A stretch of 45,081 nucleotides of DNA from Octopus sinensis (lineage: Eukaryota). The notes under the pieces were generated by a model. It saw only the letters and a program-made list of their open reading frames with translations, was not told where the DNA came from and ran no database searches. A program made the translations under genes and the position numbers. The stretch covers positions 1 to 45,081 of the forward strand of contig NW_021834830.1 in NCBI RefSeq assembly GCF_006345805.1, in the 5' to 3' direction. This document shows positions 11,800 to 15,883 of this stretch, piece by piece; the stretch's first letter is position 1, and the number at the start of each line of letters is the position of its first letter.

Positions 11800-13700
11800 C
11801 TACACAAAACGCAACTCAGAATGAAGCCTAAATGCTTTAAATATTTGTAAAATATTAAAAAAGAACTGAAATGTTTAATGGAGATATTCAAAAACTTGTC
11901 ACTAAAATATTTCACAAGCAAGGATAAAGTGTTAGCAAATATCATGAATAATATATTCAAAGAACACGAAATAAGACTGGTTGGTTCATTATGAGTGAAC
12001 TAAAGTAATTCTTAAAATTCAAGAAATATAAACCTTAAAACCCAGATACCCGAGATCCCCTTTACTAGTTTCCTAAGTTTTAATTATAGTTTCACAGAAG
12101 ATAAGTAAATTACGTGGGAAACATTTATGTTCATAAGACCAAAAGAGATGTAGGAGGGGATTATGTATATGGTAATAAATATCAGTCATTGATCAACAAA
12201 GCCAGAACGGAAGGTTGTAGAAGGAGAAAGAAGGTTGCGATTACGACAAGGATTTACTTCCAAATGGTTTTTGACAGTGTTCTCCGTATGTGAGTCTTGG
12301 AAATATTAGTCAAATTAAAATAGTACCAATGATAACTAGATATATTAAAAATGTATATTAGTAGACGGCTAACAATTATGTAGATATAGGCAATAATGAT
12401 TCAAAGAAACTTACCTTATTGTTGTTAGGCTACGAATATTCCAAGAGGGCCCCACTGTCCACTTCGCTTCTTTATGTTCTCATTAACACCTTTAACCAGA
12501 ATGTTAAAACAAGCTGGACTGCGATGTTAATGCTATGACAGAACCAATCAACCTGCCATAACATGTACATTATATGATATGTCATGTATATGGATGACAT
12601 GAAGTTGTACGCTGTAGATGATAAACATCTAGAAACACGAGAGGAATTGATATGCGATTCAGGTTAGAAAAATGTGCCAAGGCAACACTGAAGAGAGGAA
12701 ATTTAATTAAGTACATTAATGTCATGTTTGATGAAGAAACAATGACAAGAGAATTAGATCAAAAACAAGCTAACATATACTTAGGAAATAATGAACTAGA
12801 CAGAGTACAACATACATAAATGTGAGAAAAGGTTAAGAACGAATATCATAGACGCATTAGATGAATATTCAAAACAGCGTTAAATGCCAAACATAAAGTA
12901 ATAAGCATCAATACTCTAACTGCGCCAATAATAAGTCATAGTTATATTTTCAACCCAAAATCTCACAAAGATTATATTAGCAACAGAGACAGGGAAGTAT
13001 TCGATGACTAGAAAACTATTATAAAATATCCACTGTACAACTACAAATATATCTTGCAAACTATAGCAGAAAGCTAATATAAATAGCTATAAAAGACGAA
13101 TAAAACAAAAACAATTTCTGTCTTCAAAGAAAGTAATAAATTTAAAACGGAGGCTGAACAGACAGTTATGATGATAAAAGAGAAGCAGTACCATACATTG
13201 CGAAAAAAAAAAAGAAAAAGAAAAAGAAAAAGATGAAAAACTCAGTTAAAACGTTGCTAAAGCGACGGAAAGAAAAGCCCCTATATGGCCAATATTTGAG
13301 AAAAGTTAACATGGAGGAAAGAGATAAAACAATTGCATCACTGGTTCAGAATGATTTCTTTTTTTTTTTTTTGCGTAGTAGGTCAGATCAAAACCTTCCT
13401 ACAAGAAGCCATTATAAGCATATAATGAAAACGGTTGCAATAAGAAACTGAAGAAAATGTGGAATTGAAGAAGAGACGATGAACCATATTGCGTATGGCA
13501 GCACAGTTTTAAATAAGAAATTGCAAGTCTTCACGTATGGCAAAATTGGTGCGTTCATACACTAGGAATTATGCCAACATTATGGAATACTAAAAGAGAG
13601 AGAGTATTAATGTAGACCTGAAAAGGTATGAGAAGGAGGAAACAGCCATACTCTGGGTTATGCAGAACCACACAGATACGGTGAGCAATGTTAATCAGTT
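11800..13700 (+). mobile_element. Decayed RLE-type (R4/Dong-like) LINE: RT, zinc knuckle and start of endonuclease
   Basis: FDSV, IFQEG, YMDDMKLYA (12587-12613), DMRFRLEKCAKATLKRG, KTALNAKHKVISINTL, KPLYGQYL, KCGIEEETMNHI, IH*ELCQHYG. Confidence 0.88.
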
Positions 13701-13852
13701 ATATATTGTATATATTCCTCCTTCTCATCCTTTTTCTGGTCTACATTAATACTCTCTCTTTTAGTATTCCATAATGTTGGCATAATTCCTAGTATATGAA
13801 AGCACCAATTCTGCCATACGTGAAGATGTGCAATTTCTTATTTAAAACTGTG
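13502..13852. repeat. Inverted duplication, ~140 bp arms (13502-13641 / 13715-13852), 73 bp spacer
   Basis: cacagttttaaataagaaattgca...gaaggaggaa is reverse-complemented as ttcctccttctc...tgcaatttcttatttaaaactgtg. Confidence 0.95.
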
Positions 13853-13930
13853 TCGACTAATAAAAAAGGATTCACCCCAACTGAGGAAAATATAGCAAGA
13901 ATAGAAATGGTAAAATTATACAAATATAAA

Positions 13931-14189
13931 TATTTCGTTTTGGGATTTGGTTTGCAAGATTCTTTATATAAGTTCGTGTGTTGAAGCATATTCTGTTGAG
14001 TCTAGGGAGAGTCATTTTCTTTTTGTGCCTTATAATGTAACACACTCACCGGTAAAAATTCCACTTATTTCTTACTTTTATTTTCCTAAAATTTTCGTTG
14101 CGTCTTGCAACCTTTTCAATAGTCTTACCGGTGAGTGTGTTACATTATAAGCCACAAAAAGAAAATAACTCTCCCCTGACACAACAGAA
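13931..14189 (-). mobile_element. ~260 bp Penelope-type mini-element: pLTR plus inverted partial pLTR, 14 bp TSD
   Basis: Direct repeat tatacaaatataaa at 13917-13930 and 14190-14203; inverted arms 13988-14055 / 14125-14192; hammerhead motif in the spacer. Confidence 0.75.
14086..14122 (-). ncRNA. Minimal type I hammerhead ribozyme motif, U3:A8 variant
   Basis: Minus strand reads CUA-UUGAAAA-G-GUUGC(AAGAC)GCAAC-GAA-AAUU-U-UAG: stem I 3 bp, stem II 5 bp, palindromic stem III. Confidence 0.7.
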
Positions 14190-14559
14190 TATACAAATAT
14201 AAAAATTTGGAAATAGAAATGACAAGAATACACAAACAATGTAGTATGTAACATTCACATTAAGTAGAATACTTGAGACACAACAGAAAGTACAAAACAT
14301 TTCACATACACAAGGTTCGCAGAGCTGCACTCGATTGTGTCGAGGTACATTACTCACAGATAATACTTATATTTTATCTTTTTATTCGACCAAGATGATG
14401 CTCATAGATATTACAATATTGTTTCTACAAAATGATTATATTTACAATCAAATCAAACTTCACTGACTTAGAACAGAAAAGAAAAAGAAAATCACATTAG
14501 ATAATGTATCAGTGATACATAAAATACGAATTCGTCATGACCAGGATAACCTTTCTTAG

Positions 14560-14870
14560 ACGTTTCCAGACAGGAGTGTCATGCTACCAAAGAGGCAACA
14601 ATGAGAACAAAAACTATGGCAAGTCAACGAAGAAGCTTCTACGAGCCATTAGGTGTTCGCTCGATCAGCTGTATTTAATAGTCAAATTTCCTTCATGTCC
14701 TACACTAACGAAACCATTATGTGTCTACTCGATCAGCTAGAAATAATAACCAAATCCTCCCCCACATTACGCATTACTGTCAACAAAAGATTAAGGACAA
14801 ATCTGAATAAAATGATGCGGTAGTTAGAAACCGGAAAGTGTTTCTTTACAAGCCTATACATCTCAGCCAA
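14560..14870 (+). repeat. Old interspersed repeat (family D) with internal partial duplication
   Basis: ctcgatcagct occurs twice; the motif gctagaaatarcarccaaat recurs in reverse at ~19690-19715, ~24985-25005 and ~33575-33608. Confidence 0.5.
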
Positions 14871-14919
14871 TCTAGAGCTAAACAAGAGCACCAGCAATTA
14901 CTACTACTACTGCTGCTGA

Positions 14920-14951
<32 letters not shown>

Positions 14952-15094
14952 AAAATAATAATAATAATATTTCTCTTTCTCTCTCTATCTATATATCAAT
15001 TTATCTATCTGTCTGTCTAACTGTCAGTCTCTTTCTCTCTCTTACTATCTATCTATCTGCCTGTCTATCCACCTATTTATTTCACTATATATCA

Positions 15095-15305
15095 TTCAAA
15101 ATGTTACCGCGTGTGTACGTTGGCGATTTTTTTTCCTCTGTCTTCCCTTCTCTGGATCTTTCTTTCTCCTATGTTTCCGATGAAGAGCGCCGCTCGAAAC
15201 GTTAAACCTTCCTTCTTTCCTTCTTTCCTGAGCGTCCAATAATACTATATTTGTTCCACGTCCTCGCGTTGCTTTGTTTTTTGTGCTTTCATGTTTGGAT
15301 TAACT
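15095..15305 (+). mobile_element. ~210 bp non-coding pLTR-like element with hammerhead motif
   Basis: Closely similar to 40931-41135 over its whole length; the 3' end runs into (TA)n. Confidence 0.85.
15173..15207 (+). ncRNA. Minimal type I hammerhead ribozyme motif (C3:G8, U4C variant)
   Basis: GUUU-CCGAUGA-A-GAGC(GCC)GCUC-GAA-ACGU-U-AAAC. Confidence 0.7.
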
Positions 15306-15883
15306 ATATATATATATCTATCTATATATATATATATATATATACATATATACATTTATCAATCTATCTGGCTATTCAGCTGTCTATTTGTCTATCTATC
15401 GATCTATTTATTTATCTATCTACCTATCTATCTATTTATCTGTTTATTTATCTGCCTATCCATCTATCTATTTGTGTACCTCTTTATTTGTCTATCTATC
15501 CATCTATCTATTTATCACTCTATAAAACTCAACAAATGTACGTCTACCATATTATTTGACAACTTATAAATACCAGCTAACGTAAACCACAAATTACCTT
15601 CGGAATATATGATCTGTGGAATATCATATGCGAAAAAAAAAAACCCAAAACAAAACAAAGGCGTTAGAGCAGTTGGAGGTAAATGGCTTCTAAATGATTA
15701 CAATTTCTGTATTAAATAGCAATTAAATTCCCTCAAATTGCATTTAACCTTCAATATAAACTAAACCGCATATGACAATGTAGTCCAAGATAGATAAGAT
15801 TTTGTTAAGAGAATAGTCATGGTTGGAATGTCTTCGTTGATACGCGACATCAAGGAGTACCAAAGCAACAAAACACCTTTTAC

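What the first reader, a model, noticed from the sequence alone, without database searches (positions are those of the whole stretch)
13917..14203. Self-contained ~260 bp hairpin mini-element with a U3:A8 hammerhead in its loop and a 14-bp TSD
Seen: 68-nt inverted arms (13988-14055 / 14125-14192, about 5 mismatches by eye) enclose a 69-nt spacer holding the ribozyme motif. The inversion point lies 2 nt from the motif's 5' edge, and tatacaaatataaa flanks both sides. Known: inverted partial pLTRs are a typical product of Penelope insertion. Inference: this is a single insertion of a non-coding, ribozyme-bearing unit, either an extreme truncation or a retrozyme-like non-autonomous family.
Basis: partly seen in the sequence, partly recalled or inferred. 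Interest (0 to 1): 0.7.

Follow-up and report, generated by a model that had tools for sequence, protein, structure and literature searches.

The report
Penelope retrotransposon stump with hammerhead
This 259-base hairpin is one of thousands of stumps of a Penelope-type jumping gene: it holds the start of that gene and a hammerhead-shaped RNA motif of a known kind, it is absent from the matching site in a related organism, and it was likely made when the element's enzyme copied the short front end of its RNA twice, so it is ordinary in kind.

Summary
In detail: 68-nt arms with 5 mismatches, an exact 14-bp flanking repeat, and a minimal U3:A8 hammerhead on the minus strand. An empty site with one repeat copy exists in 3 of 8 runs laid. 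The unit is not non-coding and not a retrozyme. It is the pseudo-LTR of a ~4.5-kb Penelope-like element (RT + C-terminal GIY-YIG) and contains the first 29 codons of its ORF. The 57 nt outside the arms is the Penelope 'tail'. The genome holds at least 2,864 copies. In 90 sampled copies the two outer ends are fixed. Inner ends vary and pile up at a likely transcription start just upstream of the ribozyme (52 of 138 arms), not at its cut site (3 of 138). All of this architecture is published, and the scan reported the same kind of stump repeatedly on other DNA of this genome. One side result may be new: the parent RT carries a ~70-aa insertion between motifs A and B, shared by 65 of 65 measurable relatives.

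The parts
13917..13930 (+). Target-site duplication, left copy (14 bp)
   Evidence: Exact repeat; empty site joins 13916 to 14190 in 3 runs of organism E; the modal family duplication is 12 bp
13931..13987 (-). 57-nt 'tail': pLTR sequence between the two fixed outer ends (likely the two internal RT start sites)
   Evidence: Present on one arm only; family outer ends fixed at unit positions ~138-150 and ~201-204
13931..14126 (-). Sense, tail-bearing pLTR arm (unit positions 7-202), 6 nt short of the family 5' boundary AGAGTC
   Evidence: Alignment with 30 copies; colinear after RT-EN and before the ORF in long copies
13929..14015 (-). First 29 codons of the parent RT-EN ORF (MTLPRLNRICFNTRTYIKNLANQIPKRNI; the last codon overlaps the target repeat)
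   Evidence: Translation; the frame continues in L170, L260, L262 and aligns to the N-terminus of intact 1047-aa relative P0018, E 2e-16
14086..14122 (-). Minimal type I hammerhead motif, U3:A8 core, extra G before stem II; predicted cut between 14089 and 14088; activity untested
   Evidence: Descriptor scan, fold; all core letters equal the family majority
14125..14192 (+). Inverted partial pLTR copy (unit positions 78-145), lacking both ribozyme and tail; 2-nt overlap at the junction
   Evidence: 48 of 90 sampled copies have such an arm
14190..14203 (+). Target-site duplication, right copy (14 bp, 3-nt overlap with the arm)

Best explanation
The hairpin is a single, decaying insertion of the pseudo-LTR end of a protein-coding Penelope-like retrotransposon, likely made when the element's reverse transcriptase started at two fixed internal sites on a short 5' piece of its RNA and the two copies were joined head to head. 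Shown: insertion with target duplication and empty site; the unit is the pLTR at both ends of an RT + GIY-YIG ORF and holds the ORF start; two fixed outer ends 57 nt apart; variable inner junctions; a pile-up of inner ends at unit positions -2 to 15. Inferred: RNA begins at AGAGTC from a promoter in the pLTR. The endonuclease nicks AT-rich DNA on both strands 12-14 nt apart. Each 3' end primes cDNA at one of the two start sites (about +26 and +84 of the ORF), copying towards the RNA 5' end; here one cDNA ran to position 7 and the other stopped at 78. The hammerhead is carried along uncut, and a lone minimal hammerhead would probably not cut without a dimer partner.
For: Empty site: joint 13916->14190 skipping 273 bp in 3 of 8 runs laid, all organism E, three studies. 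2,864 exact matches to a 30-nt tail pattern, control 0. In 90 copies taken in chromosome order: 48 have an adjacent inverted arm, its outer end at 138-150 in 43 of 48; duplication of 12 bp in 18 of 48. Inner ends of 138 arms: 15 extend upstream, 24 at -2..3, 28 at 4..15, 3 at 42..48 around the predicted cut. 16 of 20 endonuclease-selected loci carry the unit downstream in the same orientation. Copies with N-terminal, RT, EN and unit in order, units 85-94% identical to the window; in L170, L172, L185, L260, L262 the tail runs on into the ORF. GIY-YIG Pfam hit above cutoff; RT motifs align to a Pfam-positive RT and a relative's model matches RT folds at Z 10-11. Published parallels: inverted pLTR + tail + TSD + ORF start inside the pLTR (PMC3846280); tail = interval between two internal RT starts, both strands cut and extended, ribozyme cleavage not needed (PMC11167929); U3-A8 minimal hammerheads, mostly single or on opposite strands (PMC4209133). 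The 5 arm mismatches are uncompensated and split 2:3 between the arms relative to the family majority, as expected for neutral decay.
Against: No intact parent ORF was recovered; all long copies seen have stops or frameshifts. The transcription start is inferred from DNA ends only; RT stalling at the ribozyme fold could give part of the 4-15 pile-up. The window's subfamily is skewed to short copies (97C allele: 39 of 63 stopped arms vs 6 of 22 extended, p = 0.0065; 0 of 22 EN-linked arms have its three-site haplotype), which fits some amplification from non-coding sources, though my EN queries came from an older subfamily. Twin priming was not shown for this family, and PMC3846280 proposes self-priming on an antisense template instead. 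The tail (57 nt) is longer than the 30-40 nt described.
Confidence: 0.88

Rival explanations
1. The youngest subfamily spreads mainly from short, non-coding source copies: any solo pLTR with its promoter makes an RNA carrying both RT start sites and is copied in trans, like a Penelope-driven SINE. The insertion chemistry would be the same as in the best explanation; only the source differs.
For: Sharp 5' boundary at AGAGTC. The subfamily with the least divergence (3.3%, against 4.0% and 5.5%) is enriched in short copies and absent from 22 EN-linked arms. pLTR sequences alone suffice for mobilisation in trans (PMC3846280 passages).
Against: Copies with the window's 97C allele run on into the ORF (L260, L261, L262; L262 also has EN upstream), and 10 arms of the window's haplotype extend 30 nt or more upstream (summed over two sets that can overlap). 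RNA from the 5' pLTR of a full element gives the same short product. No tandem short family was found.
Confidence: 0.2
2. A retrozyme: a non-coding element whose hammerheads cut tandem transcripts into circles that are reverse-transcribed and inserted.
For: Type I hammerhead in a 200-260-nt AT-rich repeat. One locus (L261) has a ~325-nt internally deleted unit in tandem. A 2026 preprint derives retrozymes from pLTRs (10.64898/2026.07.22.740005, abstract and first part).
Against: The window copy has one hammerhead and no tandem. Ends do not map to the cut site (3 of 138 arms). The deleted tandem junction occurs at one locus only (2 matches). The unit is coding. The motif is of the minimal PLE type, which PMC7229834 separates from retrozyme hammerheads.
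Confidence: 0.03
3. A MITE or other DNA-transposon foldback with a chance hammerhead-like loop.
For: Short, AT-rich, long inverted arms, very many copies.
Against: Arms are not terminal (57-nt tail on one side) and vary in length from copy to copy; 42 of 90 copies have no adjacent inverted arm; duplication length varies; the unit is colinear with an RT-EN ORF.
Confidence: 0.01

Closest known systems
Insertions of endonuclease-bearing Penelope-like elements with inverted pLTR and tail (Adineta vaga Pen2a, PMC3846280; overview in PMC8557442)
   Same: ~200-bp pLTR containing the ORF start, adjacent shorter inverted pLTR, tail on one end only, target duplication of about 10 bp, AT-rich or (TA)n targets; Asn-rich stretch in the ORF.
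   Different: No ORF body is left between the pLTRs here; tail 57 nt rather than 30-40; modal duplication 12 bp; thousands of copies.
Poseidon element PAc of Anolis carolinensis (PMC11167929)
   Same: Two fixed ends inside the ORF 5' region delimiting the tail, AC-rich sequence there, hammerhead near the ORF start, no sign that ribozyme-cut RNA is the main template.
   Different: PAc has a C3:G8 core overlapping the start codon and RT starts near +111-118; here the core is U3:A8, lies ~70 nt upstream of the ATG, and the ends are at about +26 and +84. PAc was tested in vitro; this family was not.
Minimal type I hammerheads of metazoan PLEs, U3-A8 variant of Schistosoma Cercyon (PMC4209133)
   Same: U3-A8 core, unpaired base between 9 and 10.1, G10.1-C11.1 pair, palindromic 15.2-16.2, mostly single copies scattered in the genome.
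   Different: Stem II 5 bp (7-8 in Schistosoma), stem I 3 bp (4-5); host likely an octopus.
Non-LTR retrozymes (PMC7229834; 10.64898/2026.07.22.740005)
   Same: Short AT-rich repeat with a type I hammerhead, related to pLTRs.
   Different: Retrozymes are head-to-tail tandems with canonical hammerheads and no ORF; this is a head-to-head, ORF-start-bearing stump with a minimal motif.
Neptune / Nematis / Hydra clades of C-terminal EN PLEs (PMC8557442)
   Same: Parent has a C-terminal GIY-YIG, a CX4CxxC linker and CCHH like Neptune/Nematis, and an LRW(K/R) and DKS motif reminiscent of Hydra.
   Different: RT motif A-to-B spacing is 128 aa, against 59 in a Neptune-type element of the same genome and about 60 in Nematis; Hydra lacks CCHH.

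Membership tests
EN+ Penelope-like element insertion | Parent ORF with RT and C-terminal GIY-YIG endonuclease | tested here: met
   (PF01541 22.8 bits, cutoff 22.6; RVT_1 only E 0.089 on the decayed copy)
EN+ Penelope-like element insertion | Unit is a pLTR: found at both ends of the ORF and containing the ORF start | tested here: met
EN+ Penelope-like element insertion | Adjacent inverted 5'-truncated pLTR, with a tail at one end only | tested here: met
   48 of 90 copies; outer end 138-150 in 43 of 48; either arm can carry the tail
EN+ Penelope-like element insertion | Target-site duplication of variable length, with an empty site holding one copy | tested here: met
EN+ Penelope-like element insertion | Internal initiation of reverse transcription at two sites | not testable with these tools
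   Only the genomic footprint (two fixed ends) was seen
Minimal type I hammerhead of PLEs | Core CUGANGA/GAAA/UH or its U3-A8 variant, extra base before stem II, G10.1-C11.1, palindromic 15.2-16.2 | tested here: met
   features as listed in PMC4209133
Minimal type I hammerhead of PLEs | Self-cleavage, as a dimer or with protein help | not testable with these tools
   Needs an in vitro assay; copies are too alike to show covariation
Non-LTR retrozyme | Two or more head-to-tail units, each with a hammerhead | tested here: not met
   One motif at this locus; one tandem derivative at a single other locus; one same-strand pair 295 bp apart among the first 100 matches was not examined
Non-LTR retrozyme | No protein-coding sequence | tested here: not met
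Non-LTR retrozyme | Abundant circular RNA of unit length | not testable with these tools
   No raw-read RNA run was laid
MITE | Terminal inverted repeats at both ends and a fixed structure and TSD | tested here: not met
Neptune/Nematis clades | CX2-5CxxC linker and CCHH in the endonuclease | tested here: met
   CTNDNCMVC and RCIESTC..EH..QH in L083
Neptune/Nematis clades | No insertion in the RT fingers (A-to-B spacing about 60 aa) | tested here: not met
   128 aa in L083 against 59 in L073; 123-159 in 65 of 65 measurable relatives; about 60 in Nematis_Cr, counted by hand from the supplement text of PMC8557442
Neptune/Nematis clades | Placement in an RT phylogeny with named references | not tested
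   No named reference proteins were on hand as session sequences
Hydra clade | CCHH absent, linker CxCX5C | tested here: not met
   against section 11 of PMC8557442

The most novel reading that the evidence does not exclude
Probability: 0.3. Interest if true: 0.5.

Novelty: new member of a known kind. Interest (0 to 1): 0.22.

Why it matters
As a structure it is ordinary and published. Its use is as a clean natural read-out of how Penelope elements insert. Two fixed outer ends, a 12-bp modal duplication, an empty site, and inner ends that stop at a likely transcription start rather than at the ribozyme cut all agree with the one in vitro study of a Penelope protein and argue that the hammerhead does not process the main template. 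It also warns that such stumps can be misfiled as MITEs, microRNA hairpins (Rfam gave sub-threshold MIR hits) or retrozymes. If the parent's long fingers insertion marks an undescribed clade, it would add a data point on how Penelope RTs relate to telomerase.

Tried and rejected
1) Neptune-type endonuclease upstream of copy L031 as the parent: rejected; 0 of 20 other copies of it carry the unit in line (one has a 78% match in another arrangement). It is a separate young family. 2) Rfam: no hammerhead family at E<=10 in 13300-15600 or among the 150 rows shown for the window; my first strict descriptor also missed the motif until the extra base and absent stem III were allowed. 3) Ribozyme cleavage as the source of the ends: 3 of 138 arms end at 42-48. 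4) A tandem short family: the L261 junction occurs at one locus. 5) Neighbouring foldback 13502-13852 as part of the element or a sister element: no such foldback family (best other hits 72-76% over one arm). 6) RNA evidence: no RNA holder listed; all 8 runs laid were DNA-type or unlabelled contigs. 7) PDB sequence search of the RT piece: 0 hits; Foldseek no match at E<=0.001; the VIA search did not show that the insertion resembles telomerase's IFD (model pLDDT 63). 8) Search for longer homologues of the EN piece gave one uninformative hit. 9) Literature: 'hammerhead ribozyme' + 'octopus' gave 5 papers (4 listed), none on this by title and abstract start; searches showed no description of a C-terminal-EN lineage with a long fingers insertion. 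The library lacks most subscription papers, Repbase and Dfam, so this is weak. 10) Scan look-ups by sequence and by words found nothing.

Full report
Observation. The coordinates are right. Arms at 13988-14055 and 14125-14192 are 68 nt with 5 mismatches; the 259-nt unit folds at z = -13.5. The 14-bp repeat is exact at 13917-13930 and 14190-14203. On the minus strand, 14122-14086 reads as a minimal type I hammerhead: stem I CUA/UAG, core UUGAAAA, an extra G, a 5-bp stem II, GAAA, then AUU-U with the predicted cut between 14089 and 14088. The spacer alone folds into this shape, and a matching descriptor finds 0.02 such motifs per shuffled window with a 5-bp stem II. Rfam does not recognise it.

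Single insertion. Contigs from three runs of one related organism (organism E, three studies) join 13916 to 14190, skipping 273 bp with 13 letters fitting either side: the insertion plus one repeat copy is missing. Of the 8 runs laid, X2, X3 and X5 have contigs bridging the right junction of the filled site, and X7 and X8 are undecided by the 31-letter rule. Across 90 loci (L001-L060 and L136-L165; the set includes a few copies fetched twice and some (TA)n targets), 43 had a flanking repeat of 12 bp or more, against 3% of mismatched pairs.

Family. A 30-nt tail pattern has 2,864 exact matches in the 2.7-Gb genome, control 0; allowing for ~4% decay this implies of the order of 10,000 copies (my estimate). 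I analysed 90 of them, the first on contig C1 by position. All end at unit position 201-204 by selection. 48 have an adjacent inverted arm, whose outer end lies at 138-150 in 43. Duplications peak at 12 bp (18 of 48). Inner ends of the 138 arms vary: 15 run upstream of the unit, 24 stop at -2 to 3, 28 at 4 to 15, 3 at 42 to 48 around the predicted cut (44/45), and 68 elsewhere. Only 3 of 90 resemble the window's layout, each with its own junction. The hairpin is therefore rebuilt at each insertion, and its outer ends, not its junction, are fixed. Either arm can carry the tail.

Parent. A first candidate, a Neptune-type endonuclease upstream of L031, failed: 0 of 20 other copies carry the unit in line. 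The inverted arm of L037 instead ran into a decayed GIY-YIG frame. Of 20 loci selected with that piece, 16 have the unit downstream in the same orientation. Longer copies show N-terminal region, RT, endonuclease and unit in order, with units 85-94% identical to the window. In L170, L172, L185, L260 and L262 the tail continues into the ORF, in the frame that starts at window 14015; that frame aligns to the N-terminus of an intact 1047-aa relative (E 2e-16). The endonuclease passes the Pfam cutoff. The RT is weak in Pfam on the decayed copy (E 0.089), but its motifs align to a Pfam-positive RT, relatives hit RVT_1 below cutoff, and a model of one relative matches RT folds at Z 10-11. Close named homologues are from Octopus, so the host is likely an octopus. 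No intact parent ORF was seen.

Mechanism. Shown above: insertion, pLTR identity, two fixed ends, variable junction. Inferred: RNA starts at AGAGTC, 10 nt upstream of stem I; staggered nicks prime cDNA at two internal sites about 26 and 84 nt into the ORF; both cDNAs run towards the RNA 5' end and are joined head to head with a few bases of overlap or filler. PMC11167929 (parts 1-2 of 4 read) shows for an Anolis Penelope protein that both strands are cut and extended, that the tail is the interval between two internal RT starts, and that ribozyme cleavage is not needed. PMC3846280 (passages) describes pLTR + inverted pLTR + tail + duplication with the ORF start inside the pLTR, and prefers self-priming on an antisense template, a rival for the joining step that I could not exclude. 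The junction here is near the ribozyme because this arm nearly reached the RNA 5' end; 853 copies match the intact 5' boundary exactly and 350 match a pattern reaching upstream of it. The arm mismatches are uncompensated, and the sense arm differs from its subfamily majority at 6 positions over about 190, close to the 3.3% mean, so the hairpin is not visibly maintained.

Against this reading. The window's subfamily is the least diverged and is skewed to short copies (p = 0.0065); none of 22 endonuclease-linked arms has its three-site haplotype. My endonuclease queries came from an older subfamily, and a targeted pattern found 4 unit-to-ORF junctions, 3 with the window's 97C allele, so the skew is suggestive only. 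One locus holds an internally deleted tandem unit, but its junction occurs nowhere else.

Known kinds. PMC4209133 (parts 1-2 of 4 read) reports the U3-A8 core, the extra base, the palindromic 15.2-16.2 and scattered single or opposite-strand motifs in Penelope pLTRs, with little cleavage and none as monomer. PMC7229834 (passages) and the 2026 retrozyme preprint (part 1 of 5) define retrozymes as tandem, non-coding units; those tests fail here. PMC8557442 (passages, sections 3, 11, 12, parts of the supplement) gives the clade features. PMC13282606 (passages) lists Penelope-like elements in Octopus vulgaris and has no occurrence of 'hammerhead'. The twin-priming wording is from my own knowledge of LINE-1 inversions. 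The scan's earlier notes on this genome reached the same kind of verdict for other families; they gave me the lead to PMC3846280 and are not counted as support.

Side result. The parent RT has 128 aa between motifs A and B against 59 in a Neptune-type element of the same genome. Among the stored proteins, the 65 in which both motifs could be found have 123-159; the rest were dropped for lacking a motif match. 8 of the 65 also show a C-terminal endonuclease motif and 1 an N-terminal one. PMC8557442 states that canonical C-terminal-EN elements lack such an insertion. My searches found no description of this lineage, but they do not cover Repbase, Dfam or most subscription papers, and no tree was built.

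Verdict. Real, well explained, and a new member of a known kind: interest 0.22. The most novel reading concerns the parent lineage (probability 0.3, interest 0.5 if true).

Noticed in passing
window 13502-13852: A second foldback 64 bp from the insertion. Its right arm (13711-13861) is missing from the same organism E contigs that show the empty site, so it is a lineage-specific inverted duplication of local DNA; arm divergence (5-8%) is similar to that of the Penelope arms. The two events may be linked; not shown.
   Followed up: partly
window 15173-15208 (+): A second minimal hammerhead motif of another family: core CCGAUGA (C3:G8, U4C), extra A, 4-bp stem II, stem I GUUU/AAAC.
   Followed up: no
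L061-L081, e.g. L073:3250-5682 (+): A young, abundant Neptune-type family (copies 97-98% alike, 2,128 candidates) with long open frames, a separate upstream ORF, and frequent head-to-head inverted copies. By eye its 3' end (L031) also carries a UUGAAAA-type hammerhead core.
   Followed up: partly
L083:478-1545 (+); P0002, P0018, P0023, P0028: Parent RT lineage with a ~70-aa insertion between motifs A and B and a C-terminal endonuclease; 200 representatives at E<=1e-30 to P0002, mostly unnamed.
   Followed up: partly
L261 (G000:C2, about 76266800-76267450): An internally deleted ~325-nt unit (pLTR + 100 nt of ORF joined to the last ~20 nt of the 3' UTR) in tandem, with an inverted tail: a retrozyme-like birth event at a single locus.
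   Followed up: yes
L172 and L185, about 450 nt upstream of the conserved N-terminal block: Asn/Thr-rich low-complexity coding stretch inside the parent ORF, as described for Adineta Penelope elements.
   Followed up: no
window 14049-14002 (-): GTGAGT...YAG, a splice-site-like pair 48 nt apart that encloses the ATG; splicing would remove the start codon, so it may be coincidence.
   Followed up: no
L109, L110, L119, L125, L126, L261: Several copies stop about 18 nt upstream of the main 5' boundary, at CAGT: possibly a second transcription start, but the search pattern biases towards this.
   Followed up: no
L072:851-3 (-) and L073:6413-7381 (+): Open frames with RWK, DKT and KDHK motifs or a CCHH-less endonuclease, resembling Hydra-clade elements.
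   Followed up: no
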